This document shows, piece after piece, positions 49 to 47,528 of a DNA stretch of 62,378 nucleotides. Each line of letters opens with the position of its first letter. The stretch's first letter is position 1. Below the pieces are notes generated by a model, which was given only the letters and a program-made list of their open reading frames with translations, did no database searches and had not been told where the DNA came from. Source of the stretch: a virus (Duplodnaviria > Caudoviricetes); the IMG/VR virus record IMGVR_UViG_3300033148_010415, positions 1-62,378 of that record; one strand, written 5' to 3'. A program made the translations under genes and the position numbers.

Positions 49-57
49 GGCTGTATT

Positions 58-79: not shown

Positions 80-88
80 TGCGGAATG

Positions 89-9088: not shown

Positions 9089-9107
9089 GTTTGCCCTGGA
9101 GTCGATT

Positions 9108-10523: not shown

Positions 10524-13011
10524 AATACCTTTGACTTTCAATGAGATTTCAAACGCGGACCCGACCTATACACGTATGATCCGTAGAGCATTCGTGGCAG
10601 AAGTTAACAAGCGCTTTAGGCGACTTAAGGGTGCCATTCGCAAGGCTATCGTGGATCAAGATTGCTTCGGGCTGCAATCGCCATCCTTGATCGCGATGGA
10701 CGTTGCGCTTTCCCTGCCACGGGAGAGACAGTTCGCATTTACACGGTCAGCTGATAAAGTCCAGGCATTCATGGACTGGCTGGACGAAGCAGAAAAAGCT
10801 GAAATTCTAGAAGTTGTGATCCGCCCAGGAATACGGCCTGGTGTGGAAGGTGCTTGGACGGATAGGTTCATACGTTCGGCTTACCAGAGAGGTATCGCTA
10901 GGGCCCGGACTGAACTTAGAAATGCTGGGAGGACAGATATTCCATCGTTTGAGCAAATTCCGGGCGGGATAAGCGCAGTTTTCAACCAGCCGTTCCATGC
11001 TGATAGAGTGGGGCTTCTGTATACCCGTTGTTTCAGCGAACTCAAGGGCATTGATCAGGCAATGGATCAGGCCATATCACGTTCTTTGGCTGAAAGCATT
11101 GCGGAGGGCAGGAACCCCAGACAGATAGCCCGGATATTGAATAAGCGTGTTGATGCAATCGGGATCACCCGGGCCAGAACAATGGCCCGTACTGAGGTGA
11201 TAAGAGCGCATCATGTAGCAAGCATTCAAGAATATAGACATGCAGGGGTTGAGGATGTCACGGTAATCGTTGAATGGCTCACCGCCGGATACAACGTCTG
11301 CCCGGTATGCCAGGAACTCGAGGGACGTACGTTCACCTTGGACGAGATTGAGCCGATGATTCCCAGGCACCCGAACTGTCGGTGCGCAAGCATACCTGCG
11401 GGTGTGGGGGAATGGCCTCATGAATTCCTCAGGCCGGAGAAGGAGACAGCTAGGGAACGGGCTGCAAAAAAGGCGGCAGAAACAAGGAAAAGAAAAGCTA
11501 AGCTTAAAGCCGTTCCTCCAAAAGCGAAGGAACCAGATATAGGTCTTGCCGATGATATTGTAAACCGCCTCGAATACCAGCCAGGAACGCAATTAGGAAG
11601 CAATCCTGGCGGGATGTATAAAGACCCGCAAACCGGCAAGCAATATTATATCAAGTTCTACGCTGATCCCGATCAGGCCCGGACGGAATGGGCTGTCAAC
11701 CGGATATATAATGAGTGGGGGATAGAAACCCCGAAGTCCTATCTAAACGAAATGCCAAGGTTGGGAGGAGAGACCAAAGCGCTGGCACACGTTACTGAAT
11801 GGGAAAAGAATTTGACACGGGTAGACTGGACACCAAGAAACATCAAAAAATATTCAAAAGAACTGGCAAAGATTCATCAAGCATCAGCGATGGTGGCTAA
11901 CTGGGACGTGGTAGGACTTGAGTTCGACAACCTAGTACTAAACAAAAAGACCAAGAAACTATTCGTGATAGATTCCGGCGGTTCCCTTAGATTCCGGGCA
12001 CAGGGAGCGTCAAAACCGTTTACCGGAACACCGGAGGAAATCAAGAGCCTGCTTAATACTCGATATCCAGCCGGAAAGGTTTTTTCCAAGGTCTATGAGA
12101 TGGATGTTTTCCTGGAAGAAGATGGTGCAAGGGGAATATGGCAGGCCTGGAATAAAAGGACCTTTGATAACATCCTTATCCAAAGCGGAATTAAGAATGC
12201 AAAAGAATTATCCGAAGCACTCGCCCAGCGTATAGAATATATGATTGACCGTTATAACCTGGATGGTAGACATAATGTCTTTGGTCCCGAACAGGGTAAA
12301 TGGATAGCTAAGTTTAGGAAGTTGAAAGGTGGAGAGCGATGGCCTGATATAAAGATAGGTGAATATGGCTCAGTATATACGGTTGAAGGGCGAAATGAAA
12401 TGAGGTTACTTGCGAAAAGTTTACTTGAAAAAGAGTTAAAACGCGAATTAAGTACCGATAAAATGCAAAGATTACAGTATCTTTTTAACAGTGAATGGTC
12501 AAGTTCGAGCCAGAGCAGAGGCGGTATGGTGCTGAAATACTGGGCGAAACATATCAAAGGGATCGGCGGTAGTATTTACCCTCATCAGGAAATAACCTCA
12601 TTAAAGGAAATGTATGAAGCATATGCAGCCCTTTACGGGGGTCTTGATAATTTTCATAAAGCTTTACAGATTGAATACGAATTTAACCAATACATCTTGA
12701 GACGGCTGCATGGCTATGATAAATTCAAATTATGGCGCGGATGCGGTTTAAATGAAATGAGGATAGCGGCTCCTGGATTGCGTAATGGAGAGGTTGGTAA
12801 TTATATGAACGGTAATCCCGTAATCTCTTCTTCAGCTAGAAGGAGTAAGGGTTTTATTTTCGGGAGCACTACAATTGAAATAGACGCGAGGATAGAAGAT
12901 GTGTTAAAAGTCTATTATCAGGGTAGCAAGTGGATGCACTATGGCCCAAGTGAAGCAGAATATATTCTTATAGGAAACAGGTGGGGAAGACAGGTAAGAA
13001 GAATACGATGA
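10507..13011 (+). CDS. MuF/SPP1-gp7 head morphogenesis protein with C-terminal kinase-like and ADP-ribosyltransferase-like domains
   Basis: ARTE, CPVC, PRHPNCRC (MuF); GSNPGG/YYIK/NWDVVG..DN/IDSG (kinase-like); LWRG/SSS/EAEY (R-S-E ART). Confidence 0.85.
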   Translation: MATALKIPLTFNEISNADPTYTRMIRRAFVAEVNKRFRRLKGAIRKAIVDQDCFGLQSPSLIAMDVALSLPRERQFAFTRSADKVQAFMDWLDEAEKAEILEVVIRPGIRPGVEGAWTDRFIRSAYQRGIARARTELRNAGRTDIPSFEQIPGGISAVFNQPFHADRVGLLYTRCFSELKGIDQAMDQAISRSLAESIAEGRNPRQIARILNKRVDAIGITRARTMARTEVIRAHHVASIQEYRHAGVEDVTVIVEWLTAGYNVCPVCQELEGRTFTLDEIEPMIPRHPNCRCASIPAGVGEWPHEFLRPEKETARERAAKKAAETRKRKAKLKAVPPKAKEPDIGLADDIVNRLEYQPGTQLGSNPGGMYKDPQTGKQYYIKFYADPDQARTEWAVNRIYNEWGIETPKSYLNEMPRLGGETKALAHVTEWEKNLTRVDWTPRNIKKYSKELAKIHQASAMVANWDVVGLEFDNLVLNKKTKKLFVIDSGGSLRFRAQGASKPFTGTPEEIKSLLNTRYPAGKVFSKVYEMDVFLEEDGARGIWQAWNKRTFDNILIQSGIKNAKELSEALAQRIEYMIDRYNLDGRHNVFGPEQGKWIAKFRKLKGGERWPDIKIGEYGSVYTVEGRNEMRLLAKSLLEKELKRELSTDKMQRLQYLFNSEWSSSSQSRGGMVLKYWAKHIKGIGGSIYPHQEITSLKEMYEAYAALYGGLDNFHKALQIEYEFNQYILRRLHGYDKFKLWRGCGLNEMRIAAPGLRNGEVGNYMNGNPVISSSARRSKGFIFGSTTIEIDARIEDVLKVYYQGSKWMHYGPSEAEYILIGNRWGRQVRRIR

Positions 13012-17292: not shown

Positions 17293-17649
17293 ATGTCCAA
17301 ATTTAAAGTTAAATCCGGGAAGCATTACCGGAAAGAAAAAGATGGTGTGAAGGTTTATTGCACCGGCGATGTTATCGAGGCGGAAGAGCATGAACTCCGC
17401 AACTGCATGGATAAATTCGAACGGCTTGATCCGAAAAAGCCCGAGGAGGCTATGAAGCCGAAAGTGGGCCTTAAAGCTGTGCATCGCGGTGGGGGGAAAT
17501 ACAACGTCATTAATGAGCGCTCAGGCAAGCCCATAAATGACCAACTGCTTTCGAGGGAAGAGGCCGAGCAACTCGCAAACAGGGGCTTTGATGAGAATAT
17601 AGTTGAAGAACCTGAGGCGGCCGGAGACGTGACAGTCATTGAGGAATGA
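17293..17649 (+). CDS. Hypothetical virion-associated protein
   Basis: Strong SD, follows the capsid gene; HRGGGKYNV motif. Confidence 0.65.
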   Translation: MSKFKVKSGKHYRKEKDGVKVYCTGDVIEAEEHELRNCMDKFERLDPKKPEEAMKPKVGLKAVHRGGGKYNVINERSGKPINDQLLSREEAEQLANRGFDENIVEEPEAAGDVTVIEE

Positions 17650-18323
17650 ATTGGAGCGCACCCAAAATATGGCCGGATGCGACCGCATATATCATCGGCG
17701 GCGGGCCCAGTGTCAACAGCACGAACCTTGAGCTCATCAAGGGAAAGCACGTCATAGGCGTGAATAACGCCTATCTGCTCGGTGATTGGGTTGATGTTTG
17801 CTGGTTCGGGGACTGCCGGTGGTTCGATTGGCATAAAAAGAATCTCAAAAGATTTGCCGGCCTGAAGGTTACGTGCTGCGAACGATGCATCCGGGAACCC
17901 GGCATTAATGTGCTTAAACGCAGCACGAAGCGGTGGGGCATCGAAAAAAATCCCAATGCCGTGTCATGGAACTTGAGTTCCGGCGGGAGCGCTATCAACC
18001 TGGCGGTACATTTCGGAGCAAAAAGGATCGTGCTTATAGGGTTCGACATGAAACGGGTGCGGGTCGAGGTCGCACCGGGGAAATTTGCAGATAAGGCTAA
18101 CTGGCATGATGACCATCCTGCACCGGATAAAAATCCTTACGAGCGGTTCCTGAGGCCGTTCAAGATCATCAGGAAGGACCTCGAGGAGCTCGGGATCGAA
18201 TGTATAAATGCGACACCCGGAAGTGCGCTGACGCTTTTCCCTGTGATGGCTTTGGAGGAGACGTTTAAAGATGGCGCGAACGAAACGCTGGCAATGGCTG
18301 GCCAAAATCGTCAGGAAACATAA
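17646..18323 (+). CDS. Maf/DUF115 (MptE-like) glycosyltransferase-type protein
   Basis: IIGGGPS, IGVNNAY, SSGGSAINLA..GAKRIVLIGFDM, INATPGSAL. Confidence 0.7.
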   Translation: MNWSAPKIWPDATAYIIGGGPSVNSTNLELIKGKHVIGVNNAYLLGDWVDVCWFGDCRWFDWHKKNLKRFAGLKVTCCERCIREPGINVLKRSTKRWGIEKNPNAVSWNLSSGGSAINLAVHFGAKRIVLIGFDMKRVRVEVAPGKFADKANWHDDHPAPDKNPYERFLRPFKIIRKDLEELGIECINATPGSALTLFPVMALEETFKDGANETLAMAGQNRQET

Positions 18324-18789
18324 TCTGATGTTTGGCGCTGAGCTAGGCGTCAAAAGTGGGAGAACCTGTATATATCTCCTTGAGCAATTCCCGCGCTTAA
18401 GAATGATCGCGGTGGATTGCTGGCAGCCTCAACCCGATAATCCCGGACCTCAGAACTACACCGATGGATGGGATCACATCGCTAATGAACAGCAGTTCAG
18501 GCGCCAGGCCGCGCGCTTCAAAGACAGGTTAATCATATTCAAGGGCTTTACGCATCAAATAGCCGGGAAGATACAAGACAGCTCTCTGGATTTCGTGTTC
18601 ATCGATGCAGACCACGGGTATGAGGCATGTAAGCGGGATATTCTGATGTGGCGGTCGAAAATCAAACCCGGCGGTTTTCTTACAGGCCATGATACCCATT
18701 TTGAGGGCGTTCACCGGGCTTTAATGGAACTTTATCCTAGCTATAAAGATACGGGAGTCGATCACGTATGGTACGTAAGACTACCATAA
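18271..18789 (+). CDS. SAM-dependent methyltransferase (Methyltransf_24-like)
   Basis: AELGVKSG, DFVFIDADHGYE, KPGGFLTGHD. Confidence 0.85.
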   Translation: MARTKRWQWLAKIVRKHNLMFGAELGVKSGRTCIYLLEQFPRLRMIAVDCWQPQPDNPGPQNYTDGWDHIANEQQFRRQAARFKDRLIIFKGFTHQIAGKIQDSSLDFVFIDADHGYEACKRDILMWRSKIKPGGFLTGHDTHFEGVHRALMELYPSYKDTGVDHVWYVRLP

Positions 18790-19394
18790 AAGCAGGCAAA
18801 GAAATTCTACTCTTGCCCAATGAAAAGCTGATCTTTCTTCTCAGTGCCAAGTGTGGCAGTAGCTCGATACGGCGTATGGCCATGTATAAGCTTGATTATG
18901 ATAAACCCGGAGACCCAAACCGGGGCCTGCACTATCTTCAAGCTCATGAAGTAAAAAATTATCCGGAGTATTTCAAAATTATGATCACGCGGAATCCTTG
19001 GGCAAGGATTGTATCTCTTTACACTGACAAGGTGGTGCGAACGCTTTATAAGTCTTTCAGATTATTTGGGATTAAACGTAAGTGCCCTTTTGGGGAGTTT
19101 GTCAGAATCATTTCCCGCGTACCTGATCATAGGACAGACCCGCATTTCATATCGCAATCGATTTTTATTGATCAAGTAAAGCCGCACATCGTTTGCAAGT
19201 TAGAAGAAGTGAGGAATTACTGGCATTTTTTACAGCATGCATTGAAAAAGATAAATGATATAGATTTGCCTGATTTGCCTCACTTTAATAAGAAACCACA
19301 CGGGCCTTACCGGGAATATTATGATGACGAAACCAGGACATTGATTGCTAAACGCTATAGACGCGATGTGGAGCTTTTCAACTATGCATTCTGA
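18768..19394 (+). CDS. Sulfotransferase (family 2, carbohydrate sulfotransferase-like)
   Basis: KCGSSSI 5'-PSB, RNPWARIVSLY 3'-PB, DPHF..Q, YREYYD...Y..D.ELFNY. Confidence 0.85.
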   Translation: MVRKTTIKAGKEILLLPNEKLIFLLSAKCGSSSIRRMAMYKLDYDKPGDPNRGLHYLQAHEVKNYPEYFKIMITRNPWARIVSLYTDKVVRTLYKSFRLFGIKRKCPFGEFVRIISRVPDHRTDPHFISQSIFIDQVKPHIVCKLEEVRNYWHFLQHALKKINDIDLPDLPHFNKKPHGPYREYYDDETRTLIAKRYRRDVELFNYAF

Positions 19395-20034
19395 TATTAC
19401 CGTAGCCTGCGTTTTTTGGAAGGGCAGGTTCAGGGGCCGTGATTATACGCCGGAGTGGGTAGAGAAACTCAAGAATATGGTCTCACGTAATTTTTCTATA
19501 CCTCATAGATTTGTATGCTTTTCCAATGTTGAAGTACCGGTTGAGAGGATTCCATTGCGTCATAATCTCCCCGGGTGGTGGAGCAAGCTCGAGCTCTTCG
19601 ACCCTGACAATAGATTGCGGGGACGAATCCTTTATATTGACCTGGATGTGGTGATTGTCGATGACCTTTCGCCAATCGTGGACTATCCATCAGAATTTGC
19701 CATTGTGCCGCATTTCCACCCCTCCATGAAGTCTGGAACGATAATTGGCAACGAGGTGGTCAGATACAACTCATCGGTAATGGTTTGGAACGCGGGCGCT
19801 GGGGGAAGGATATGGAAATATTTCAAGCTTAAGGATATGGCTCTTTTCCGAGGCGACCAGGACTGGATAGCCTCTATTATGCCGGACCTTGACACATTTC
19901 CGAAGAGATGGGTGACCAAGCTGCGGTTTTGCCCGGATGGCCCGCCGCCGGATGCGAAGGTAATCCTGGTAATGCCTGGAAAAAATGAAAAAGCTGCAAG
20001 GCGGTACAGATGGATAAAAGAACTCTGGATTTAA
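19384..20034 (+). CDS. GT-A glycosyltransferase (GT8-like)
   Basis: GWWSKLELF, YIDLDVVI (DxD), NSSVMVW, GDQDWI. Confidence 0.85.
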   Translation: MHSDITVACVFWKGRFRGRDYTPEWVEKLKNMVSRNFSIPHRFVCFSNVEVPVERIPLRHNLPGWWSKLELFDPDNRLRGRILYIDLDVVIVDDLSPIVDYPSEFAIVPHFHPSMKSGTIIGNEVVRYNSSVMVWNAGAGGRIWKYFKLKDMALFRGDQDWIASIMPDLDTFPKRWVTKLRFCPDGPPPDAKVILVMPGKNEKAARRYRWIKELWI

Positions 20035-20681
20035 CTGTAGTGTGTTTTCTCTGGATCGGGGATCGATGGCATCGATCAGACCTGGGAGTTGAATACGTAA
20101 ACCGACTTTTCCGGGGAGTGCAGAGGAATATTTCAGCATCTCATCGATTCGTATGTTTCAGCAATATATCAGGGAATTACGAGAATTTGATTGAGGTTCG
20201 TCCTTTGAATGCTCCGAGCTGGAAAGGTTGCCTGCCGAAAATAACGGCCTTCGATCCGAAACACGGTTTTCACGGGCATGTGATGGTGATGGATATTGAC
20301 ACAGTCGTAGTCGGCTCCCTGGATGACATTGCGTCTTACAGGGGGGACTTCTGTGTCAGGGCGAAATTCCGGGCGCCGCACCTACCGGACGGCGATCTCG
20401 TAGGCTTCAATGCGGAAAAATGCGCATGGATATGGAGCGAATTTGCGGAGAACGTAGACAATGTTGAGAAAATGACTCGGGGACGAGAACGGTTTTTTTA
20501 TCGTGAATTACCCATCAAGCCCGACATCTGGCAGAGACTTTTCCCTGGCCAGCTTGTGAGTTACAAGAATCACGTGAGGAAGCAAAAAACGCTTCCCGAT
20601 AATGCGCGACTTGTCTCATGCCATGGTAATCCCAGGCCGCACGAGATCAACGAGTCCTGGGTAAAGGAGCATTGGATATAA
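20010..20681 (+). CDS. Second GT-A glycosyltransferase (paralogue)
   Basis: YVNRLFRGVQRN, MDIDTVVV (DxD), SYKNH, CHGNPRPHE. Confidence 0.8.
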   Translation: MDKRTLDLTVVCFLWIGDRWHRSDLGVEYVNRLFRGVQRNISASHRFVCFSNISGNYENLIEVRPLNAPSWKGCLPKITAFDPKHGFHGHVMVMDIDTVVVGSLDDIASYRGDFCVRAKFRAPHLPDGDLVGFNAEKCAWIWSEFAENVDNVEKMTRGRERFFYRELPIKPDIWQRLFPGQLVSYKNHVRKQKTLPDNARLVSCHGNPRPHEINESWVKEHWI

Positions 20682-21127
20682 TCATGGTCTACTGGATCAC
20701 GGGACGTGCGAAATCCGGCAAGACGACGCTGGCGAAGAGCCTGATCGAGGCTAATAAATTCAAGTCTATCGTATTATTGGATGGGGATGAGGTTAGAGAG
20801 CATTTTCCGGGTACCGGCTACTCGGATGAGGAACGATATGAACATATCATGCGCATCGCCCGGTTCGCAGCCATCCTGGAGAAGCAGGGATTTCTCGTAA
20901 TCATCGCCCTGGTTTCTCCCCGCAAAGCGTGGCGCCAAGAGGCCCGGAAACTGTTTAGGGAATCGAAGCTGATCTATCTCCCCGGCGGCCACCTCTGGGA
21001 AGGAACGGTCTATGAAGAGCCGGATGAAGAGGAACTGAGAGATAGCGGAATGGTTTATGAGCGCCATCCGAGTTATTACCGAAGAATCTTATGTACTCTC
21101 ATGAACGAGGGAGGAGGCGGTGACTGA
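20672..21127 (+). CDS. cysC: Adenylyl-sulfate (APS) kinase, short form
   Basis: WITGRAKSGKTT P-loop, LLDGDEVR, GYSDEER, ALVSP. Confidence 0.8.
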   Translation: MDIIMVYWITGRAKSGKTTLAKSLIEANKFKSIVLLDGDEVREHFPGTGYSDEERYEHIMRIARFAAILEKQGFLVIIALVSPRKAWRQEARKLFRESKLIYLPGGHLWEGTVYEEPDEEELRDSGMVYERHPSYYRRILCTLMNEGGGGD

Positions 21128-21815
21128 TCCCATTCTGATAACCGGGGCGGCCCGTTCGGGAACATCCATGATCGCCGGCTGTGTATTCCGCTGCGGTGCC
21201 TGGGGCGGGAAAATGTCCGGCCCTACACGCTATAACCAACGAGGAATGTACGAAAACTCGGAAATTCGCAATCAGATCGTGAAGCCTTTCCTGAGAAAAA
21301 TCGGGGTCGATCCTTTGTGCCAGAATCCATTACCGGATATCGTGAAGATTGAAGAGATGGCATACGAAGTCGGGGAGCAATGGGTAGGATGGGTTTTGAG
21401 AATCATCAAGCGGCAGGGGTACAAAAAGGGTCCCTGGTTTTATAAGGGAGCTAAAATGTGCCTGCTATGGCCTATCTGGCACGAGATGTTTCCCTTTGCG
21501 AAATGGGTCATTGTGCGGAGGAATGCACATGATATTGCTTCGTCATGCCTTAAAACCGGATTCATGCGCGGCCACAAAAATCGTGCAGGCTGGTTATATT
21601 GGGTGGCGCAACACGAGAACCGTTTCCGGGAGATGTACGAGGCCGGACTGAAAATCAGGGAAGTGTGGCCGCATAAAGCTATTGTGTATGCCGATTTTTC
21701 GGAATTAAGGGGTGTTATCGAGTGGCTCGGTCTCGAATGGAACGAGAAAGAGGTCATGGAATTCATTAGCCCTGCACTGTGGAGCGGGAAGAAACACCAG
21801 GCAAACGTAGCTTGA
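21120..21815 (+). CDS. Sulfotransferase (family 3-like P-loop)
   Basis: ILITGAARSGTS, N.RG.YEN, AKWVIVRRNAHDIASS. Confidence 0.8.
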   Translation: MTDPILITGAARSGTSMIAGCVFRCGAWGGKMSGPTRYNQRGMYENSEIRNQIVKPFLRKIGVDPLCQNPLPDIVKIEEMAYEVGEQWVGWVLRIIKRQGYKKGPWFYKGAKMCLLWPIWHEMFPFAKWVIVRRNAHDIASSCLKTGFMRGHKNRAGWLYWVAQHENRFREMYEAGLKIREVWPHKAIVYADFSELRGVIEWLGLEWNEKEVMEFISPALWSGKKHQANVA

Positions 21816-22551: not shown

Positions 22552-22913
22552 ATCCTGAAATTAAGGGCCTGGATGAGGTTTTGAAAAATTTAAACCGTGA
22601 AATCCAGGCTATCGAGGGGAGGTCAAAAGCGGGTATCAGGCAAGCAGTACTTTTGGTAAGACGCAGATCGCAAATATATACGCCCGTAGATACAGGCAAT
22701 CTAGTTAATAGTATATATACTGAGGTTTATGATACATCGAAAGGTCCCGTAGGAGAAATCGGTTATACAGCAGCATATGCACCTCGTGTTCATGAAATGA
22801 TAGGAGCCACTTTCAAAAAGCCAGGTGCGCGGGCAAAGTTTCTTGAAACGGCCTTGAATGAGAGCGTAAAAGATATTTTAAGTACTATTAAAAAGAGAGT
22901 AGAGGTGAAATAA
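22542..22913 (+). CDS. HK97 gp10-like tail completion protein
   Basis: TPVDTGNL..S, YTAAYAPRVHE, AKFLE. Confidence 0.8.
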   Translation: MAVNPEIKGLDEVLKNLNREIQAIEGRSKAGIRQAVLLVRRRSQIYTPVDTGNLVNSIYTEVYDTSKGPVGEIGYTAAYAPRVHEMIGATFKKPGARAKFLETALNESVKDILSTIKKRVEVK

Positions 22914-23116
22914 TGGCGAAAATGGGAAATATAACGATGCAAATTGATAAATATTTTATTCAAACGAGAATCCCTATATGTTTATCTAAGCATTGCAAAC
23001 ACAATATGCTAAGTTTACATGACGTTGCTTTCTGTAATCTTAAAACAATTGAAATTGGAAAAGAGGGGAATTGTTTATCTTTTGAGGAGCGCAAAAAGGA
23101 TGAACCCTCCCAGTGA
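22913..23116 (+). CDS. Small Cys-containing hypothetical protein
   Basis: AT-rich ORF overlapping neighbours; CLSKHCKHN..C..C. Confidence 0.5.
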   Translation: MAKMGNITMQIDKYFIQTRIPICLSKHCKHNMLSLHDVAFCNLKTIEIGKEGNCLSFEERKKDEPSQ

Positions 23117-23495
23117 AGATATTAAGGATATATTAGAAAGCTCACAGTCAGGCACCGGGCTTGTATTCGGGACTGATCTATTTATCGGGGAGGAGCCGGT
23201 ATCACCCGACCAGTGCATAACTATCTATGATACAGGCGGGCCGGAACCGCAGGCAGGATATGTCTACGATTATCCTACGGTGCAAGTTAGGATTCGCGGG
23301 AATAAAGGAGCGTACAAAGAGACATGGGCGCTTGCTGATACCATCAAAAGCGCTTTGCATGGGCTTCATAATGAATCATGGAACGGGACGAAATATCATG
23401 GTATCTGGTGTCAATCCGACATTATTTTTATCGGATATGATGATAATTCACGGCCTGTATTCACCGTGAATTTCAGGATACACAGAAGCGCATAA
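23100..23495 (+). CDS. Tail terminator protein
   Basis: ITIYDTGG, YPTVQVRIRG, GYDDNSRPVFTVNF; upstream of tail tube. Confidence 0.75.
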   Translation: MNPPSEDIKDILESSQSGTGLVFGTDLFIGEEPVSPDQCITIYDTGGPEPQAGYVYDYPTVQVRIRGNKGAYKETWALADTIKSALHGLHNESWNGTKYHGIWCQSDIIFIGYDDNSRPVFTVNFRIHRSA

Positions 23496-23522
23496 CGTAA
23501 CGTAACGAAAATTCAATATCGG

Positions 23523-23609
23523 ACCTGGTTTCGGATAGGCCGATCTGAAGCCGGTGCAAAAAAAGGAAAAGGGCAGTCTAGGTACCCATTACTTAGACTG
23601 CTCTTTTTT
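23523..23609 (+). promoter_or_regulatory. Two-hairpin leader/terminator upstream of tail tube gene (element C)
   Basis: GGAT-AGGCCG-ATCT hairpin, A-run, GGGCAGTCTAGGTA..TACTTAGACTGCTC-TTTTTT. Confidence 0.65.
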
Positions 23610-23626
23610 ATTAGGAGGATAAAAAA

Positions 23627-24055
23627 ATGGGAAGCGATGGAATTGTTGGCGTTGGAACCTTGTTTAAACGAGGGGGAACTGAAGATTCCAGCTCACAATC
23701 TTTTACTACCATTGCAGAAGTGAATTCTATTAGTTGGGGCGGAATGAGCCGTGCAATTATAGATTTCACTAACCTTAACTCTACAGGTGGATACCGGGAG
23801 TTCAAGGGTGGTTTCCGGGATGCCGGTGAACTTACTCTGAACATGAATTTTACCCGAGACGGGTACGATCAGATGAAGGATGATTTCGAGTCCGACGACC
23901 TTCGGTATTACCAAATCGTTTTACCGGACGATGGACAGACCACATTTGAATTTCTCGGACTCGTGACCGCTATTCCATTCGATATTCCGACCGATGACAA
24001 GATCACCGTATCGGTTACCATCAAAGTTAGCGGTCAAGTGACTATGAGTTCATAA
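23627..24055 (+). CDS. Tail tube protein (lambda gpV-like)
   Basis: IDFTNLNSTGGYREF..GFRDAGEL, VTIKVSG. Confidence 0.85.
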   Translation: MGSDGIVGVGTLFKRGGTEDSSSQSFTTIAEVNSISWGGMSRAIIDFTNLNSTGGYREFKGGFRDAGELTLNMNFTRDGYDQMKDDFESDDLRYYQIVLPDDGQTTFEFLGLVTAIPFDIPTDDKITVSVTIKVSGQVTMSS

Positions 24056-24067
24056 AAAGGAGGAACC

Positions 24068-24463
24068 ATGAGAGTCTTAACCAAAGACGATATATTAAAT
24101 GCGGATGATCTGCCGCGCGAAACAATCGAGGTACCAGAATGGGGTGGAAGCGTGATCATACGCACACTCACTGGAGCGGAAAGAGACGAGTTTGAAGCAT
24201 CCCGGTTCATAGTAAAGGGCCGAAGCGTTAAAACTAACCTTGTCAACCTGAGGGCACGGTTAATATCAATGTGCGCGGTTGATGAAGAGGGAAATCGGCT
24301 TTTCACATCGGAAGACGTTCGCAAGCTCGGAAAGAAATCCGCCAAAGCCCTTGATCGATTATTTGAGGCCGCACAGAGGTTATCCGGTCTGACTCCCGAA
24401 GATATTGAGGATATGACAAAAAACTCCGAGAGCGGCCAGAGCGAAGGTTTTATTTCAGATTAG
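24068..24463 (+). CDS. Tail assembly chaperone (gpG)
   Basis: VPEWGGSV.IR.LTGAERD; between tube and tape measure genes. Confidence 0.85.
   Translation: MRVLTKDDILNADDLPRETIEVPEWGGSVIIRTLTGAERDEFEASRFIVKGRSVKTNLVNLRARLISMCAVDEEGNRLFTSEDVRKLGKKSAKALDRLFEAAQRLSGLTPEDIEDMTKNSESGQSEGFISD
24418..24424 (+). other. -1 ribosomal frameshift site A AAA AAC (gpG/gpGT)
   Basis: The -1 frame continues LRERPERRFYFRLALALGCTVKELL into ORF 24466-24807. Confidence 0.85.
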
Positions 24464-24465
24464 CT

Positions 24466-24807
24466 TTGGCCTTAGGTTGTACGGTTAAAGAGCTTTTAGA
24501 CAGGATAGACAGTAGGGAGCTTGCCGAATGGATAGCATTTTATCGTTTGGAACCGTTCGGGGAGGAGATGGCTTTTTTGCGGGCAGGAATTATCTCTTCA
24601 ACGATGGTCAATATGTGGAGGGATTCAAAGAGTAAGCCGGTCAAACCGGAGGATTTTATTCCGACTTGGGATGTTAAGAAATTAGCGGAAACCAAACAAT
24701 CCCCTGACGAAATGAAGCAGATACTTCAAACGATCACAAGATTATTCAAGAATAGAGGCAAAGAAAATGGCAAACATCGGGAACCTCGTAGCGACAATCG
24801 GGGCTGA
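24466..24807 (+). CDS. gpT portion of frameshifted tail chaperone gpGT
   Basis: LALG.TV.ELL..IDSRELAEWIAFY..EPFG. Confidence 0.8.
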   Translation: MALGCTVKELLDRIDSRELAEWIAFYRLEPFGEEMAFLRAGIISSTMVNMWRDSKSKPVKPEDFIPTWDVKKLAETKQSPDEMKQILQTITRLFKNRGKENGKHREPRSDNRG

Positions 24808-26695
24808 TGTTAGTAAGCTCCAAAATGATCTGCAAAAAGCAGACAGAATGTTTAAGTCTTTTGCTAATCGTACGGCAAATCATCTCAAAAGGGTGAAATC
24901 GGCTGTTTTTTCGCTTCAGGGTGCTTTTATTACGTTAGCTGGTGGATACGGTCTAAAGCGACTTATGAGTAGTTTTCTCGATACTGCTCGTACTATGGAA
25001 AACTATCAAGTGAGATTAAAAGTCTTGCTTGGCAGTACGGAAAAAGGGAACAAGCTTTTTAAAGACATGCGCGATTACGCGTCAAAGGTGCCTTTTACCT
25101 TTCAAGACATCATGGGCGCAGCTACTCAGCTAGCTGGTATTATGGGAGGCAGCGTTGACAGGATAAATCAATGGATACCTTTGATAGGAGATCTTGCCGC
25201 TGCTACTGGTCTGAGTATACAGAAAACCACAGAGCAAGTATCAAGGATGTATTCAGCCGGGGCTGCGAGTGCTGATCTGTTTCGAGAGCGCGGCGTTCTG
25301 GCTATGTTGGGATTTCAGGCAGGGGTTAGTTACTCGGCTGAGGAAACTCGGAAAAAGCTCATAGAAGCTTGGACCAAATCGGATAGTAGCTTCCGAGGTG
25401 CCACAAAAGAGATGGCTAAGACGTGGGACGGGCTCATGTCGATGATGGAGGACGCTTGGACAGATCTAAGGGACATGATTATGAAGGCCGGCATCTATGA
25501 TGCCTTGAAACAAGCCTTAAGTGATGTGAATGAAGGCCTGAGAATGTGGATCGCAAATAATAAAGAATTAATCCAACAAAAAATACCCGTGTGGGTAGAG
25601 AGGTTCAAGCAAGAGCTAAAGGATATCAAATCTCTTTTGATCGGTATCTATGAACTCTATCAGATTATATCATTGCCAGCAGATAAACTAATAAATTTTA
25701 CTAGAGATTTAGGAAAAGCTCTTGGAATGGCGACTGGCGGTCTTTTTTCATTTAGCCAGGTAGCTGAAGCCGTGGCAAAAGGCCAGTTGGCCGAACTGGT
25801 AAAAAGAGGCGAGGAACTTCTAAGTATCTACGACAAGATCAATAAGGGCAGGCCAGTAATAGATGTTTTCAATAGAACCCCACGCGGTCCAATTGAAGGA
25901 TTATCAAGGGATACCCTGACGCTTAAAGAGAAAACTGAATTATTGAACAGAGCGCTTTTAATTTCAGAAGATATTCTAAGAGCTAGAGATCTGGCGATGG
26001 AAGAGGCGGCGATTCCTATCGGGGAAATAATCGCGGGTACGAAGGAATATCAGGAGTTGCTACGACGCGGTATGCTTATCAGCGATGATTACATTAGAGC
26101 GCATCATATAGGATTGGAACTAGCTGCTCAATCTGTTGACGACATGAGCGATAAAATAAAGAGACTTAGCGATACGTTCTCACGGGCCTTCGTCGACATG
26201 CTTTGGGAGGGAGAGTTCACGTTCAAGAGGCTCGGTGAATCGCTAGTTAAGGATTTCCTTTCAAAACTTATGAGTGAGCAGATGCAGAGTCTGTTCACAT
26301 CTGTAACTAATACAGGCGGAATGTTTGGTGGCTTTTTCCGAACCCTCGCAAGCATTTTCCATGGTGGCGGTATCGTCGGCATGGGCAGTCCGAGCAGGAT
26401 GGTCCCAGCAGCAGCTTTCATCGGAGCGCCGCGGCTTCATTCCGGTCTTGCAGCGGACGAATACCCGGCAATTCTGCAGCGCGGTGAAGTGGTGTTGCCC
26501 AGGATCACAGGTAGAACCGCATACGGTCCTAGCATCCAGATCACAAACAACAATGATTTCCGCGGTGCGGACCCAACCTCGGAAATGCGTATGATTTCCG
26601 CAATGGAAATCCGGGATGAGCAAACCAAGCAGGACATACTAGAATCCCTCGAACGTGGTGGTTTGTTTGCAACGGCTATTAGGAGGATATCGTAG
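24767..26695 (+). CDS. Tape measure protein
   Basis: 642 aa helical protein, MANIGNLVATIGAD start, FHGGGIVG..HSG..DEYPAILQRGEVV C-terminus. Confidence 0.9.
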   Translation: MANIGNLVATIGADVSKLQNDLQKADRMFKSFANRTANHLKRVKSAVFSLQGAFITLAGGYGLKRLMSSFLDTARTMENYQVRLKVLLGSTEKGNKLFKDMRDYASKVPFTFQDIMGAATQLAGIMGGSVDRINQWIPLIGDLAAATGLSIQKTTEQVSRMYSAGAASADLFRERGVLAMLGFQAGVSYSAEETRKKLIEAWTKSDSSFRGATKEMAKTWDGLMSMMEDAWTDLRDMIMKAGIYDALKQALSDVNEGLRMWIANNKELIQQKIPVWVERFKQELKDIKSLLIGIYELYQIISLPADKLINFTRDLGKALGMATGGLFSFSQVAEAVAKGQLAELVKRGEELLSIYDKINKGRPVIDVFNRTPRGPIEGLSRDTLTLKEKTELLNRALLISEDILRARDLAMEEAAIPIGEIIAGTKEYQELLRRGMLISDDYIRAHHIGLELAAQSVDDMSDKIKRLSDTFSRAFVDMLWEGEFTFKRLGESLVKDFLSKLMSEQMQSLFTSVTNTGGMFGGFFRTLASIFHGGGIVGMGSPSRMVPAAAFIGAPRLHSGLAADEYPAILQRGEVVLPRITGRTAYGPSIQITNNNDFRGADPTSEMRMISAMEIRDEQTKQDILESLERGGLFATAIRRIS

Positions 26696-27330
26696 TGGCA
26701 ACGATAAACTTTCCCACGTTATCGAGATACCCGGATAAGATTAATTTTTCGCCTATATCCAATACCCAGAGGCATCAAAGCCCTCTGTCCGGTTCAATCC
26801 AGACAAAAGAAATACCGGGCACCAGGTGGAAAGTTGTTCTCCAGTACGGCATTTTGTGGGAAGACGATATCCGAAAATTACAGGCTTTTCTTGCTGAAAT
26901 GAATGGCATGGCGGGAAGATGTCATCTGTGGGATTTATCACGCGAAACGCCGCGAGGAGTTGGTACGGGAACGCCCCTGGTTAAGGGAGGCAGCCAGACA
27001 GGAAAAACTTTGAATACCGATGGATGGACTCCCAACCAGACCGGAATACTTCTAGCTGGTGATTATTTTGAAGTCAATAGCGAGATTAAACGCATGACTG
27101 CTAATGTGAACAGCGATGGAAGCGGGAACGCCACGCTCCAGTTCGGGCCGGAATTGCGGGTCAGTCCCTCTGATAATGATCCGGTTAAAGTTAACTTTTC
27201 CATGTCTTCCCAGTCCGCCTCGAAATTCATGCTTATTGATGATAATCAGGACAAATTGATGATTGAGGGAACACGGGATTTAAAGGTTTGTAAAAATATC
27301 GTTTTAACGTTCATTGAGCAGTGGTTATGA
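26695..27330 (+). CDS. Distal tail protein
   Basis: SPLSGSIQT...W motif; directly after tape measure. Confidence 0.7.
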   Translation: MATINFPTLSRYPDKINFSPISNTQRHQSPLSGSIQTKEIPGTRWKVVLQYGILWEDDIRKLQAFLAEMNGMAGRCHLWDLSRETPRGVGTGTPLVKGGSQTGKTLNTDGWTPNQTGILLAGDYFEVNSEIKRMTANVNSDGSGNATLQFGPELRVSPSDNDPVKVNFSMSSQSASKFMLIDDNQDKLMIEGTRDLKVCKNIVLTFIEQWL

Positions 27331-27887
27331 CAAGAAATCTCACACAAGATTTTAAAAATGCGATTACAGCAGACCATGTTCCCTACTTAGTTTTTGCGGA
27401 ACTGGACTTTGAATCAGGCCCGCTACGCGTCTGCAATGCTGGGTACAATTTTACCTGGGATGGCAAGACATGGCTCGGTGTAGGGCACCTTGGAAGGATA
27501 GATGGTATTAAAGAAGAAGCCAGCTTGACGGCACATGGTATCAAGTTGACGATAAGCGGAATTCCTACGGAGCATGTTTCAAAAGCCCTGGGGGAGCATT
27601 ACCAGGGTAAATCATGCAAGGTATGGCTAGCACCGCTCGATCCAGTCACATATCAGCCAGTATCCAATCCTCACATGATATTCGATGGCCTAATGGATAC
27701 GATGGACCCTAAAATCGGTAAACGGGCAACCATCACCGTTAGTGCTGAATCTATACTTGCCGACTGGGACAGGCCGAGAATACGGCGCTATAACCATCAG
27801 GATCAGATCGCGGAATTCCCGCAAGATAAAGGGTTTCAGTTCGTGGAAAAAATGGCTGACCTCACATTGATATGGGGGCCGAAATGA
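27327..27887 (+). CDS. Minor tail/hub protein
   Basis: WDGKTWLGVG.LG, FDGLMD, R.RRYNHQDQ..FPQDKGFQFV. Confidence 0.75.
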   Translation: MTRNLTQDFKNAITADHVPYLVFAELDFESGPLRVCNAGYNFTWDGKTWLGVGHLGRIDGIKEEASLTAHGIKLTISGIPTEHVSKALGEHYQGKSCKVWLAPLDPVTYQPVSNPHMIFDGLMDTMDPKIGKRATITVSAESILADWDRPRIRRYNHQDQIAEFPQDKGFQFVEKMADLTLIWGPK

Positions 27888-28285
27888 GAAAGCAGAATTG
27901 GCCTCATATATTAGCAATGGAAATCGAGGCATGGAGGAATCAGCCGTTCAGCTGGGGATTCAACGATTGCGCGATGTTCGCGGCCAACGTAGTAGAAGCG
28001 ATGACCGGAATCGACTATGCAGCGGAGTTTCGTAATAAATACACTACCCGCGAGGAAGCACAGGCCATGCTCGATGAGCACGGTGGGTTATGTTCCATCA
28101 TGGATAAGCTGTTCGACAGGATTAACCCCCGGCTTGCCCACCGGGGAGACGTAGTCTTGATAGAGGTGGATAGCCGCGAATTTCTCGCCGTAGTGATTGA
28201 TTGGCGGTGCGCAGCGCCAGGTAATGACGGGCTTTTGTTCAACAACGTCATTGACGTGGCGAAAATCGCTTGGAGGATCGATTAA
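27884..28285 (+). CDS. Tail assembly protein, NlpC/P60-like (gpK-like)
   Basis: PFSWGFNDCAMFAA, RGDVVL. Confidence 0.75.
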   Translation: MRKQNWPHILAMEIEAWRNQPFSWGFNDCAMFAANVVEAMTGIDYAAEFRNKYTTREEAQAMLDEHGGLCSIMDKLFDRINPRLAHRGDVVLIEVDSREFLAVVIDWRCAAPGNDGLLFNNVIDVAKIAWRID

Positions 28286-31200
28286 GTGGAAGCGGTAACA
28301 GCCGCAATACTTGATTTTCTTGTTATAGAAATTGGCGCAACCGTGGGATTTGCCAACGTTGTAGCCGGTGCTGTAACGTTCGGTCTGAAAGTAGCAGTAT
28401 TAGGTAGTGGAGCCTATCTGGCCGGGCGCGTATTCCAGGGCCGTAGGCCTTCTTTTACCTCTGAGGCGCAGGACAGGACGCACGTTGTTCGTTCGGCAGT
28501 GCAACCGTATCGCGTCATATATGGTGAGACCATGACCTCCGGTGCGCTGGTTTTCGCCACATCCGTAACGGGCGAATCCTCTTCCCAGAGCCAGAATTCA
28601 TATGCGTTAAAGGTTTGGGCCGATGAAGAGGCTGGGAGCAATACTATTACACTCTACACAAACGTATTGTGGAATCCACACAACACAATAGACCTCACTA
28701 TAGAGCAAAACACGGAGATTACTTTCGCCGGCGATGGTACCACCTACACCGTCCAAGCCGATGCCACGGGTACGCTCCTTTATCATGATGATGACCATAT
28801 CTGCAAAGTTGATCTAACTATATCTCCGGCCCTGCAGCAATATACCAATTCTGAAACAGAGGTCTACGAAGGCTCGGTTCCCCTTGCCTTTGTGGAAACC
28901 GTACCTGCGCGACAAGGAACAACCCATAAATACGTACACATGGTCATTTCGCTTGCGGGACATCAGGTACAGGAAATCGGTGATATATATTTTGACGATA
29001 CCATCCCGCACGATATTCCGATAACCTCATCGAGTGTCGCCAACCCTACAACTATAACTACCACGAGAAGGCACAGCCTTAAGACCGGGGATAAGATAAA
29101 GATTCAGAATCATTCCGGCGGATCTCCGGATATTAACGGAGAGCATACGGTCCTTGCTGCTCCTACTCCCACTACGTTCCAGATAGACGTGAACGTTACC
29201 CAGGCTGGTACCGGAGGGGAGTGTTTTGTAACGAGATTCTATGAGGATGGTGATTATAATAGCCCGCTTTTCCGCATCAAAAAACATCTTGGTAGCCGGA
29301 ACCAGGATGCAGACCCGGACCTTGTCTCCGAAGTTTCGGACTGGACTAATGACCACAGGCTTAGGGGGCGAGCTTATATTTATGTGAGATTTACGTTTGA
29401 TGAAAAATACAAGGCATGGCCCAACGGCATTCCCAACATCAAGGCTATCGTCAAGGGGCGTCGCGTCCATGACCCACGGACAATGCAAGAGGGCGATATA
29501 ACGTCTTCAGTTCCCTACGATTCGGTGAGCACCAAGATAACAGCGATCGGACACGGCCTCGAAACCGATGATTTGGTGAGAATTACAGGACACAGTGATG
29601 ACGATATCAATGATGAGCATATCGTAACCGTGCTCGATGACGATAATTTCACCGTTCCAATCGTCATGTCTTCAAGTGCGGGATCCGGCGGAACGTTCAG
29701 CGAAATAGCGTATTCAAACAATTCGGCTTTATGCGTACGGGACTATTTGACCGCTGAATTCGGTCTGAATTGCGGTAGAAATCGTATTGACGATGCTATC
29801 TGTATTGCAAGCGCCAATGTATGTGATGAAGACGTTGAACTTGATGCCAGTTCCGATCCTGAGACCCAAAAGCGCTATACATGCGACGGGTCGTTTACGC
29901 TCGACATGATTCCCAAGGATATCCTCGAATCACTTTGTAGCTCCATGGCAAGCCCTCCGCCGGTATGGACTGAGGGTAAATATAGGATTTTTGCCGGCGC
30001 GTATCAGGCACTGTCTTTGACCCTTGATGAAGACGATTTAAGAGATGATATAGAAATTCATCCGCGGACGTCGCGTCAAAAACTGTTCAACGCCGTGCGC
30101 GGCGTATTTACCGATCCCAACCGTGAATGGCAGCCCACAGATTTTCCACCCATAGTAAATTCTTATTACGAATCTCAGGACGGCGGACAACGCATCTATA
30201 AGGACATAGAGCTTCCATTTACCCAAAACATAATCCGGGCCCAGCGGATAGCGAAAATATATCTTGAGAAGGAAAGGCAGCCTATAACCGTTCGATTTCC
30301 TGCAAAAATAACAGGATACCAGGTCGCCCTGCTGGACACGATCGGGCTCAAGATAAACGTCCTTGGATGGAATGGTTCGGCATTTCCCAACGGCAAGGAG
30401 TTTACCTGTGTTGGCTGGTCTATCTCAAAGGACGGAGGAATCGATCTTGATTTCAGGGAAGAAGCATCCGGGATCTATGATTGGAATTATGGCGAAGCTA
30501 CGACTTTTGACTATGCGCCCGATACGGCATTGCCGCGACCTCACGAGATCGATGCACCTAACAATCTCACGTTGACTGAAGAAGTTTACAAAGAGGGAGG
30601 ACGATACAAATCCCGCGTGCGGATCACCTGGGACCCGGTAGATGATTATTCGATCATGCACTATATCCTTGAGGGGGCTTATTACGGCTCTGATACCTAT
30701 TATTCGCTCAATATGGGTACCCGCACCTGGTATGTGGTTGAGAACGTACCGCGGGGACGATATAGCGTGCGGTTGAAGGCGGTCAACCTCTACCAGTGCT
30801 CCAGCGACTGGATAAGCGCAGATATCACGGTCTTCGGTATAAACCCGATCCTCGCGTCCGCGGGCCTGGCGCCTCCGATTCAGCCGAAGCTCTTCTACAC
30901 GCCGGACAAATACGGCCACGTCAACAAGGTACGGTTTCAGTGTCAGTACAGGGTCGGTGCGGGCGGAGTCCCCACCGGCATACTGCTTCTTTATGCCATA
31001 TCCGACTATCCGAACATGCTCACCCTGGGGACCGACTCCGGATCCACTATCGACATCGCAGGGGGAGCCGTCATCGACCAGGGTGAGTACGAGGGGGAGA
31101 TCCTCGCCGGCTCCACCAGGTCCCGGCTAATTCTCAGGACGGAAACGAACCCGTTTTCCACCGAGTTCGACCGGGCCGGGATGTTCTGGTTCCAGTTCGG

Positions 31201-41829: not shown

Positions 41830-41932
41830 AAATACACCTCTTTCCCAAAATTTAAAATCCCCTCTTTCCACTATGGGAAACGGAGTCTTTTCAACCTTTT
41901 AATTCATGGTGTTTTTCCGAAAAAGCATGTGT

Positions 41933-42209: not shown

Positions 42210-42249
42210 TTTTCTGGATATCTTATTAAATCATTTTATATGGGACCAC

Positions 42250-45539: not shown

Positions 45540-45544
45540 TAAGA

Positions 45545-47503: not shown

Positions 47504-47528
47504 GGATTGACCTGTAATTGAGCTAACC

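What the first reader, a model, noticed from the sequence alone, without database searches (positions are those of the whole stretch)
23139..28591. Recurrent S-S-Q-S motif in unrelated virion proteins: candidate acceptor sequon for the glyco-sulfation cassette
Seen: tail terminator ESSQSG (23139-23150), tail tube EDSSSQSF (23687-23701), distal tail SMSSQSAS (27205-27216), tail tip GESSSQSQ (28577-28591) and MuF SSSSQS (12499-12516). Related Ser patches occur in the decoration protein (AASSAQE, STSADS), capsid (DDSATSAD), head closure (DSSDTD) and gpJ (DASSDP, MSSSAGS). The codons differ in each copy (AGC TCA CAG TCA; AGC TCA CAA TCT; TCT TCC CAG TCC; TCT TCC CAG AGC), which points to protein-level convergence, not DNA duplication. 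Inference: these are surface-loop tags read by the phage transferases so that head and tail are both decorated.
Basis: partly seen in the sequence, partly recalled or inferred. Interest (0 to 1): 0.85.

Follow-up and report, generated by a model that had tools for sequence, protein, structure and literature searches.

The report
Repeated Ser-Ser-Gln-Ser in phage tail proteins
The same four-residue motif really does recur in five virion proteins of this uncultured phage more often than chance predicts, but relatives carrying the same sugar-and-sulfate gene cassette lack it, so it is more likely a coincidence of serine-rich variable loops than a proven modification tag.

Summary
Observation confirmed: SSQS occurs five times in coding frames, at the stated coordinates, in MuF, tail terminator, tail tube, distal tail protein (Dit) and the gpJ-like tip protein. 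Expected count is 0.12-0.32. It is the most over-represented tetrapeptide of the 82-gene proteome: 2 of 300 and 4 of 300 shuffles match it, 0 of 400 match it with a clustering statistic, and 2 of 58 real phage loci (one phage) match it.

The glyco-sulfation cassette is real and is a hallmark of a large lineage: 61 of 65 informative relatives have the Sulfotransfer_3 gene and 28 of 29 the sialyltransferase-like gene.

The link between motif and cassette is not supported. In 82 related loci SSQS occurs once against 2.2 expected. None of 119 other tube homologues or 119 other Dit homologues has it. The MuF copy is an inherited SSxS motif of a DRAT-like domain. Capsid and decoration proteins have none.

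In its favour, the four tail copies lie in indel-prone hairpin loops, and the Dit copy lies in a unique 5-residue insertion.

Verdict: chance in Ser-rich loops about 0.5; phage-specific modification tag about 0.25. Untestable without mass spectrometry.

The parts
12505..12516 (+). SSQS in the MuF protein (gene 10438-13011), residue 690, inside the C-terminal DRAT-like ADP-ribosyltransferase domain
   Evidence: One search gives the position. PF04233 Phage_Mu_F at residues 212-318 and PF07357 DRAT at residues 676-847, 31.6 bits against cut-off 25; all 17 aligned domain sequences (the window's own plus 16) have W-S-x-x-S here and most have SSxS, so this copy is inherited.
23139..23150 (+). SSQS in the tail terminator (probable start 23100, end 23495), residues 14-17 from that start
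   Evidence: PF12691, E 3.6e-20; in the 60 lineage terminators aligned with the window's, this segment is mostly E-[AS]-[ED]-S-S-L-G; the closest (L060) reads EQSSVG. None of the 60 has SSQS.
23690..23701 (+). SSQS in the tail tube protein (23627-24055), residues 22-25, in the loop between strands 12-15 and 27-37
   Evidence: 1 of 120 homologues (the window's own) has SSQS; the nearest, at 70% identity, read GDGESNES; the S22 column is 95% Ser/Thr and its neighbours are among the most variable columns. AlphaFold model, loop 16-26, block pLDDT 84 and 79; lambda gpV-like fold.
27193..27216 (+). Dit (26695-27330): unique 5-residue insertion (residues 167-171, NFSMS) running into SSQS (residues 171-174)
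   Evidence: the aligned segment is 41 residues in the window against 35-37 in all 119 other homologues, and none of them has SSQS. AlphaFold mean pLDDT 94, loop 166-175 between strands 163-165 and 176-180. T5 pb9 / DT57C Dit fold, TM 0.70-0.73.
28580..28591 (+). SSQS in the gpJ-like tail tip protein (28286-31705), residues 99-102, at the start of an insertion of about 116 residues
   Evidence: seven homologues from loci lack the insertion and have short Ser/Thr-rich loops such as STTSTTST; only P0269 (53% identity) shares the insertion, and it reads GEATGAGEAN at this place.
17646..21815 (+). Cassette between the capsid and head-tail connector genes. 17646-18323 sialyltransferase/Maf-like; 18271-18789 Methyltransf_24; 18768-19394 Sulfotransfer_2; 19345-20034 and 20010-20681 glycosyltransferase-like paralogues; 20672-21127 APS-kinase-like; 21120-21815 Sulfotransfer_3-like
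   Evidence: Pfam; PHROG 4603, E 1.4e-36; PHROG 1962, E 6.5e-20 and 5.2e-27; NCBIfam apsK, below cut-off. Sulfotransfer_3 homologue in 61 of 65 relatives with enough upstream DNA; Maf-like in 28 of 29 with the capsid gene in view; Sulfotransfer_2 in 0 of 65.

Best explanation
The five SSQS copies are real sequence, but most likely they are not a shared signal. Each sits where Ser-rich sequence tends to accumulate anyway.

- The MuF copy is one variant (x = Q) of an SSxS motif conserved throughout a DRAT-like domain family.
- The terminator copy builds on a di-serine that most of the lineage already has.
- The tube copy builds on a loop serine conserved in 95% of homologues.
- The Dit and gpJ copies lie in loops that change by insertion and deletion.

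On this reading, identical tetrapeptides in four neighbouring tail genes are a rare coincidence, about 1 in 100 to 1 in 400 per genome after correcting for all tetrapeptides. Short local DNA copying between neighbouring genes may have helped. Such a coincidence is to be expected somewhere in a scan of very many windows.

The cassette probably does make and transfer a methylated or sulfated sugar. This is inferred from the gene families and from the cassette's fixed place in the virion module. Its acceptor sites, if they are virion proteins, are not defined by SSQS.

Shown: the positions, the statistics, the comparisons with homologues, and loop location in monomer models. Inferred: the absence of function.
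For: - The motif is absent where the enzymes are present. In 82 lineage loci SSQS occurs once against 2.2 expected in 256,739 non-redundant residues. 61 of 65 informative loci carry the Sulfotransfer_3 homologue, 28 of 29 the Maf-like gene, and 29 of 29 at least one cassette gene.
- No relative has a Ser-rich recurrent tetrapeptide of its own (top tetrapeptides of 38 loci). The tube-loop sequence does not recur in other proteins of the same phage in any consistent way.
- 0 of 119 other tube homologues, 0 of 119 other Dit homologues and 0 of 60 lineage terminators have SSQS. The closest gpJ homologue reads GEATGAGEAN at the site.
- The MuF copy is ancestral: 17 of 17 domain sequences are Ser-rich there.
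- Capsid and decoration proteins have no SSQS.
- With the MuF copy set aside, four occurrences proteome-wide would be on a par with QKLF, FTSE and QAIN, each found 4 times with p about 1e-5.
- Cassette-less gpJ homologues also have Ser/Thr-rich loops at the same place.
- Maf-type transferases are reported to lack a defined sequon (PMC11339370, passages).
Against: - The excess is large for a coincidence: 5 against 0.12-0.32 expected.
- 0 of 400 shuffles under each of two nulls reach the clustering statistic.
- Only one other phage among 58 real loci reaches it, and none of 4 GenBank genomes.
- The motif is exact. Of 7 SSxS in structural proteins, 5 have Q. There are no Thr variants.
- The Dit copy lies in an insertion unique among 120 homologues, in a turn otherwise fixed in length.
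- All copies are in virion proteins.
- The window has one cassette enzyme (Sulfotransfer_2) that none of 65 relatives has, so a window-specific acceptor cannot be excluded.
Confidence: 0.5

Rival explanations
1. SSQS is a phage-specific acceptor or recognition tag. One of the cassette enzymes of this particular phage would recognise Ser in [E/D]-S(0-1)-S-S-Q-S at the end of a hairpin loop and modify the four ring-forming tail proteins. The candidate enzymes are the diverged sialyltransferase-like or glycosyltransferase-like proteins, or the Sulfotransfer_2 that only this phage has. The motif would have been acquired convergently by loop insertion and substitution.
For: - Statistical excess and clustering in tail genes.
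- Exactness of the motif.
- Unique 5-residue insertion in Dit.
- Loop location in confident monomer models.
- An acidic residue one or two places before the motif in 3 of the 4 tail copies.
- The cassette genes are real and lie in the virion module.
- Sulfotransfer_2 is present in the window and in 0 of 65 relatives.
- Precedent: mycobacteriophages glycosylate capsid and tail tube proteins with their own transferases (PMC12363180, passages).
Against: - Relatives with homologous enzymes lack SSQS and lack any equivalent recurrent motif.
- There is no copy in capsid or decoration proteins, although the cassette lies in the head module.
- One of the five copies is an inherited domain motif inside an internal head protein.
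- The nearest enzyme family (Maf) uses no sequon.
- Exposure in the assembled tail is unknown. In the RcGTA tail the short loops and N-termini of tube-fold proteins make disc-to-disc contacts (PMC7296036, passages).
- No modification has been observed.
Confidence: 0.25
2. SSQS is functional but unrelated to the cassette. It could be a contact or recognition element shared by the stacked rings of the tail (terminator, tube, Dit, tip), for example for ring stacking, for a common assembly partner, or for a host factor.
For: - The four tail copies are in the proteins that form the axial rings.
- In RcGTA these proteins share one fold, and their loops and N-termini mediate disc-to-disc binding (PMC7296036, passages).
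- The statistics are as above.
Against: - The loops differ in length among homologues: 0-12 residues in the tube and a unique insertion in Dit. That fits poorly with a conserved packing contact.
- The copies are at different topological positions in each protein.
- There is no conservation in relatives.
Confidence: 0.1
3. Local DNA copying. Short templated insertions or conversions between neighbouring genes spread a word of 9-12 bases, from terminator to tube and from Dit to gpJ, so that only two independent origins need explaining.
For: - Terminator and tube, 551 bases apart, share AGCTCACA. Dit and gpJ, 1,375 bases apart, share TCTTCCCAG.
- Each word is found only at these two places on the + strand.
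- The chance that two copies use the same first three codons is 0.015.
Against: - Identity stops at 8-9 bases and there is no flanking similarity.
- In tube and terminator the motif replaces residues of an existing loop and is not a clean insertion.
- It does not explain why both pairs encode the same peptide.
Confidence: 0.1

Closest known systems
Virion glycosylation in mycobacteriophages (Che8, Corndog, Myrna; Freeman et al. 2023)
   Same: Phage-encoded glycosyltransferases modify capsid and tail tube subunits (PMC12363180, passages read). Here too, transferase-like genes lie in the virion module.
   Different: No sulfotransferase or APS kinase is mentioned for those phages in the passages read. 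No modification is shown here. The original paper (PMC10527164) is not held, so its acceptor sites could not be compared. My memory that they lie in C-terminal extensions is recall only.
Maf / FlmG flagellin O-glycosylation with nonulosonic acids
   Same: A sialyltransferase-like, MptE/Maf-like transferase acts on surface Ser/Thr of a polymerising structural protein. The window's 17646-18323 matches PHROG 4603 'alpha-2,3-sialyltransferase' and weakly matches PF01973.
   Different: No conserved sequon is known for flagellin glycosylation, and Maf does not recognise a defined sequon (PMC11339370, passages). The Pfam match here is below the curated cut-off (26.3 against 34.6 bits).
Defined bacterial glycosylation sequons (PglB D/E-X-N-X-S/T; PglL WPAAASAP)
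   Same: A short linear motif that marks several unrelated acceptor proteins.
   Different: Those motifs are conserved wherever the transferase is conserved, and they are read by periplasmic oligosaccharyltransferases (quoted from PMC11339370). SSQS is confined to one phage, and no oligosaccharyltransferase was seen in the ORFs scanned.
MuF proteins with C-terminal polymorphic toxin domains
   Same: The window's MuF carries a C-terminal DRAT-like ADP-ribosyltransferase domain. Homologous domains end other long proteins of 700-1,000 residues.
   Different: This is relevant only to the MuF copy of SSQS. That copy is a variant of the family's conserved W-S-x-x-S-S-x-S stretch. That MuF-toxin fusions form a described family is recalled, not looked up.

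Membership tests
Protein-glycosylation sequon | The short motif recurs in several acceptor proteins above chance | tested here: met
   5 observed against 0.12-0.32 expected. Shuffles that match: 2 of 300 and 4 of 300, 0 of 400 twice. Real loci that match: 2 of 58.
Protein-glycosylation sequon | The motif is conserved in acceptors wherever the transferase is conserved | tested here: not met
   1 observed against 2.2 expected in 82 related loci, while cassette genes are present in 61 of 65 and 28 of 29. 0 of 119 tube, 0 of 119 Dit and 0 of 60 terminator homologues have it.
Protein-glycosylation sequon | The motif is exposed on the folded, assembled acceptor | tested here: inconclusive
   Hairpin loops in monomer models of tube and Dit. 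The loops vary in length. The assembled rings were not modelled, and in RcGTA such loops can be disc contacts.
Protein-glycosylation sequon | A residue of the motif carries the modification | not testable with these tools
   Needs mass spectrometry of virions or of co-expressed protein.
Phage virion glycosylation by phage-encoded transferases | Glycosyltransferase genes encoded by the phage, beside the structural genes | tested here: met
   PHROG 4603 (E 1.4e-36) and PHROG 1962 (E 6.5e-20, 5.2e-27). The genes lie between capsid and connector genes in the window and its relatives. L001 adds formyltransferase and DegT aminotransferase genes.
Phage virion glycosylation by phage-encoded transferases | Capsid or tail subunits carry glycans | not testable with these tools
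   No virion material and no proteomics.
Maf-type (MptE-like, PF01973) flagellin glycosyltransferase | Match to the family model above its curated cut-off | tested here: not met
   26.3 bits against cut-off 34.6, covering only residues 106-135. The L001 homologue scores 20.5 bits. The PHROG sialyltransferase family matches over the full length.
PAPS-dependent sulfation module | APS kinase and sulfotransferase domains above Pfam cut-offs | tested here: met
   PF01583 72.2 bits against 21.1; PF03567 59.3 against 22; PF13469 28.3 against 27, which is borderline. The NCBIfam apsK models match below their cut-offs, and the kinase covers only about two thirds of the profile.
DRAT-like ADP-ribosyltransferase domain (PF07357) at the MuF C-terminus | Pfam match above cut-off, and a conserved Ser-rich stretch at the SSQS site | tested here: met
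   31.6 bits against 25. W-S-x-x-S in 17 of 17 aligned sequences.

The most novel reading that the evidence does not exclude
An uncultured siphophage marks the ring-forming proteins of its tail (terminator, tube, distal tail protein, tip) with an exact Ser-Ser-Gln-Ser tag. The tag would have been acquired convergently by loop insertions. It would be read by the phage's own glycosyl-, methyl- and sulfo-transferase cassette, perhaps through the Sulfotransfer_2 that only this phage has. The result would be a sulfated glycan coat along the tail. This would be the first defined sequon for phage virion glycosylation and the first sulfated virion.
Probability: 0.22. Interest if true: 0.8.

Novelty: not a real feature. 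Interest (0 to 1): 0.35.

Why it matters
If SSQS were a true acceptor tag, it would give a portable sequon for decorating phage tails. It would also point to sulfated glycans on virions. My searches for virion sulfation or phage-encoded sulfotransferases found nothing relevant in print.

As it stands, the useful results are negative and comparative:
- The cassette is a conserved hallmark of a large uncultured phage lineage: 454 tube relatives in IMG/VR, with cassette genes in nearly every informative locus.
- The enzymes of that cassette evidently do not need SSQS.
- Anyone testing virion modification in this lineage should therefore look first at lineage-conserved serines. Examples are the tube-loop Ser (95% conserved) and the terminator di-serine. 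The window-specific tetrapeptide is a weaker starting point.

Tried and rejected
- **DNA-level repeat.** The two shared words (8 and 9 bases) occur only at the motif sites and have no flanking similarity. They are kept only as a minor rival.
- **A lineage-wide sequon.** Rejected.
- **The idea that each relative repeats its own tube-loop peptide in other virion proteins.** There is no consistent pattern. There are only scattered matches, such as WD[DS]S in the tube and a 366-residue capsid-like protein of L032 and L044.
- **Correlation of tube-loop type with cassette content.** Both long Ser-rich and short W-S-G-S-A loops occur with Sulfotransfer_3 and Maf-like genes, so this is uninformative.
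- **N-x-S/T reading of tube loops (WNGT, WNSS).** The position is N, S or D, followed by G or S. I read this as a turn motif, by inference.
- **Solved relatives by sequence.** None for the terminator, gpJ or the MuF domain. Only weak hits for Dit.
- **Host assignment.** Close relatives sit in genome bins of eight different phyla, so binning is unreliable.
- **Exposure in the assembled tail.** This could not be computed, because the tools return no coordinates and at most four copies in a complex.
- **Literature.** No paper combined SSQS with glycosylation. None held 'phage-encoded sulfotransferase'. Searches on phage virion sulfation gave nothing relevant. Freeman 2023 is not held. Supplements were not opened, and they may hold acceptor-site tables for the mycobacteriophages.

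Full report
**What is there.** The window is a whole 62,378-base contig. Most of it is a siphophage with these genes:
- terminase (7231-8661) and portal (9087-10523);
- MuF (10438-13011) and a protease-like protein;
- decoration protein (15636-16112) and capsid (16253-17227);
- a seven-gene cassette (17646-21815) and connector genes;
- tail terminator (23100-23495) and tube (23627-24055);
- chaperones and tape measure;
- Dit (26695-27330), two small tail proteins, and a 1,139-residue gpJ-like tip protein (28286-31705).

SSQS is present at all five stated places, in frame. The six other quoted Ser patches are also present.

**Is it more than chance?** I used a curated set of 82 genes (19,570 residues).
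- The expected number of SSQS is 0.12 from global composition, 0.16 from per-protein composition, and 0.32 when residues are shuffled only within 15-residue blocks.
- SSQS has the lowest Poisson p of all tetrapeptides (1.8e-7). A shuffled proteome produced any tetrapeptide that extreme in 2 of 300 and 4 of 300 trials.
- Five other tetrapeptides also occur in five or six proteins (ARER, RERA, LEKE, LRAG, LPGG), but their expectations are 3-4 times higher.
- A statistic that also rewards clustering in neighbouring proteins gave 5.3e-9 for SSQS. This was lower than all 400 shuffles under either null.
- Against real sequence, the window's 20-kb tail region scores 1.95e-8. Of 58 fetched phage loci of at least 13 kb, two reach that value. 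They are L038 and L039, the same phage, with CFKG in three adjacent proteins.
- Four GenBank phage genomes reach only 5e-7 to 9e-6, against 1.3e-8 for the window with the same automatic gene caller.
- The motif is strikingly exact. Structural proteins hold seven SSxS, five of them with Q. There is no Thr variant. Non-structural proteins hold none.

So the recurrence is unusual at roughly the 0.3-3% level per genome. That is notable, but it is not beyond what a scan of very many windows will turn up.

**The cassette.**
- Pfam finds Methyltransf_24, Sulfotransfer_2, APS kinase and, at the borderline, Sulfotransfer_3. It also finds a sub-threshold MptE/Maf-like match.
- PHROGs name 17646-18323 a sialyltransferase family (E 1.4e-36) and the two paralogues glycosyltransferases.
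- The tube protein has 454 relatives in IMG/VR.
- Of 89 fetched loci with a tube of at least 50% identity, 65 have enough upstream DNA, and 61 of these carry the Sulfotransfer_3 homologue.
- Of 29 loci that include the capsid gene, 28 carry the Maf-like gene and all 29 carry at least one cassette gene.
- The methyltransferase (6 of 65) and the APS kinase (9 of 65) are sporadic. Sulfotransfer_2 is found in none of 65.
- In L001 the cassette also holds a formyltransferase and a DegT aminotransferase.

The cassette is therefore a variable sugar-making and sugar-transferring module. It is fixed between the capsid and connector genes of a large uncultured lineage. That it acts on virion proteins is an inference from its position.

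**Does the motif go with the cassette?** No.
- In 82 lineage loci (256,739 non-redundant residues) SSQS occurs once against 2.2 expected.
- The top tetrapeptides of 38 relatives are not Ser-rich.

Site by site:
- **Tube.** 1 of 120 homologues, the window's own, has SSQS. The nearest, at 70% identity, read GDGESNES. L001-type relatives have a short W-S-G-T-A turn. Cassette-less Firmicutes prophage tubes also have short turns. The first Ser of the motif (S22) lies in a column that is 95% Ser/Thr, flanked by some of the most variable columns.
- **Terminator.** The segment is mostly E-[AS]-[ED]-S-S-L-G in the 60 lineage sequences aligned with the window's. The closest reads EQSSVG.
- **Dit.** Among 120 homologues only the window's has SSQS, and only the window's has the 5-residue insertion that carries it: the aligned segment is 41 residues against 35-37. 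The L015-type homologues belong to lambda-like phages with no cassette between capsid and connectors.
- **gpJ.** The motif opens an insertion of about 116 residues that seven homologues lack. Those homologues have short loops, some Ser/Thr-rich (STTSTTST), at that place. The one homologue that shares the insertion (P0269, 53% identity) reads GEATGAGEAN.
- **MuF.** The motif lies in a C-terminal DRAT-like domain that lineage relatives lack; their MuF matches end near residue 320. In all 17 aligned sequences of the domain family the stretch is W-S-x-x-S-S/x-S, so SSxS is inherited and only the Q is particular.

**Structure.**
- The AlphaFold model of the tube (pLDDT 74, lambda gpV-like by Foldseek) places SSQS in the loop 16-26, between strands 12-15 and 27-37. 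This loop is separate from the long disordered loop 39-64.
- The Dit model (pLDDT 94; T5 pb9 / DT57C Dit fold, TM about 0.7) places SSQS in a 10-residue loop between strands 163-165 and 176-180.

Both copies are loop residues in the monomer. Whether they are exposed in the stacked rings is open. In the RcGTA tail, N-termini and short loops of these folds make disc-to-disc contacts (PMC7296036, passages). Against burial, the loop lengths vary freely among homologues.

**Codons.** Terminator and tube share AGCTCACA, and Dit and gpJ share TCTTCCCAG. Each word occurs only at those two places on the + strand. There is no flanking similarity. Two copies would share their first three codons with probability 0.015. 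This hints at local copying between neighbours but does not prove it.

**Weighing.**
- *For a real signal:* the statistics, the exactness, the restriction to virion proteins, the unique Dit insertion, and a window-only sulfotransferase.
- *Against:* no conservation among dozens of relatives with homologous enzymes; no equivalent motif in those relatives; one copy inherited; none in capsid or decoration proteins; and the nearest enzyme family (Maf) uses no sequon (PMC11339370, passages).

I put coincidence in Ser-rich variable loops at about 0.5. A phage-specific modification tag gets about 0.25, another shared function about 0.1, and local DNA copying as the main cause about 0.1.

**Comparison with what is known.** Phage-encoded glycosylation of capsid and tube is established for mycobacteriophages (PMC12363180, passages; the original paper is not held). 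My searches found nothing in print on sulfated virions or phage sulfotransferases acting on virions, and nothing combining SSQS with glycosylation.

**Verdict.** The proposed function is unproven and is weakened by the comparisons with relatives. Interest is moderate to low for the motif itself. The lineage-wide cassette is the more solid lead.

Noticed in passing
window 1-2900 and 60821-62378: The contig ends carry genes of a second phage, both on the minus strand. A P22-like portal lies at 89-2080 (GC 0.60-0.64). A second terminase large-subunit N-domain lies at 60821-61816 (GC 0.53-0.56), next to a tyrosine integrase at 59740-60807. On the minus strand the order is terminase, then the 58-kb lower-GC siphophage, then portal. 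The studied phage may be inserted in another prophage, or the contig may be chimeric.
   Followed up: partly
window 17646-21815; loci L001-L106: The capsid-[glycan cassette]-connector layout is a hallmark of a large uncultured lineage: 454 tube relatives in IMG/VR, with cassette genes in 61 of 65 and 28 of 29 informative loci. The content varies. L001 adds formyltransferase and DegT aminotransferase genes. Only the window has Sulfotransfer_2.
   Followed up: partly
window 28580-28930 (gpJ residues about 99-215): There is an insertion of about 116 residues in the conserved N-terminal region of the gpJ-like protein. Among the homologues aligned, only one metagenomic protein shares it (P0269, 53% identity). 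Its fold and role are unknown.
   Followed up: partly
window 12388-13011: MuF carries a C-terminal DRAT-like ADP-ribosyltransferase domain with a conserved W-S-x-x-S-S-x-S...G..[LM]K.WA stretch. Homologous domains end other proteins of 700-1,000 residues. Lineage relatives' MuF proteins lack it.
   Followed up: partly
L032 and L044 (tube loop and 366-residue capsid-like protein): In two relatives the tube loop peptide (WDDST, WDSS) recurs at residue about 230 of the capsid-like protein. This is a small echo of the window's pattern and may be chance.
   Followed up: no
window 22913-23100: There is a gap of about 190 bases, with a 67-codon ORF (22913-23116), between the last connector gene and the terminator. 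In L001 the two genes abut.
   Followed up: no
window 56975-57895: A 306-residue protein of no known family has a (PS)6 repeat at residue 149. This accounts for PSPS/SPSP ranking just behind SSQS in the tetrapeptide test.
   Followed up: no
window 40447-48452: This low-GC block holds a RelA/SpoT-like protein (40447-41871), an SNase-like nuclease (43170-43976), a SacI-like restriction enzyme (46418-47503) and a D12 adenine methyltransferase (47529-48452).
   Followed up: no
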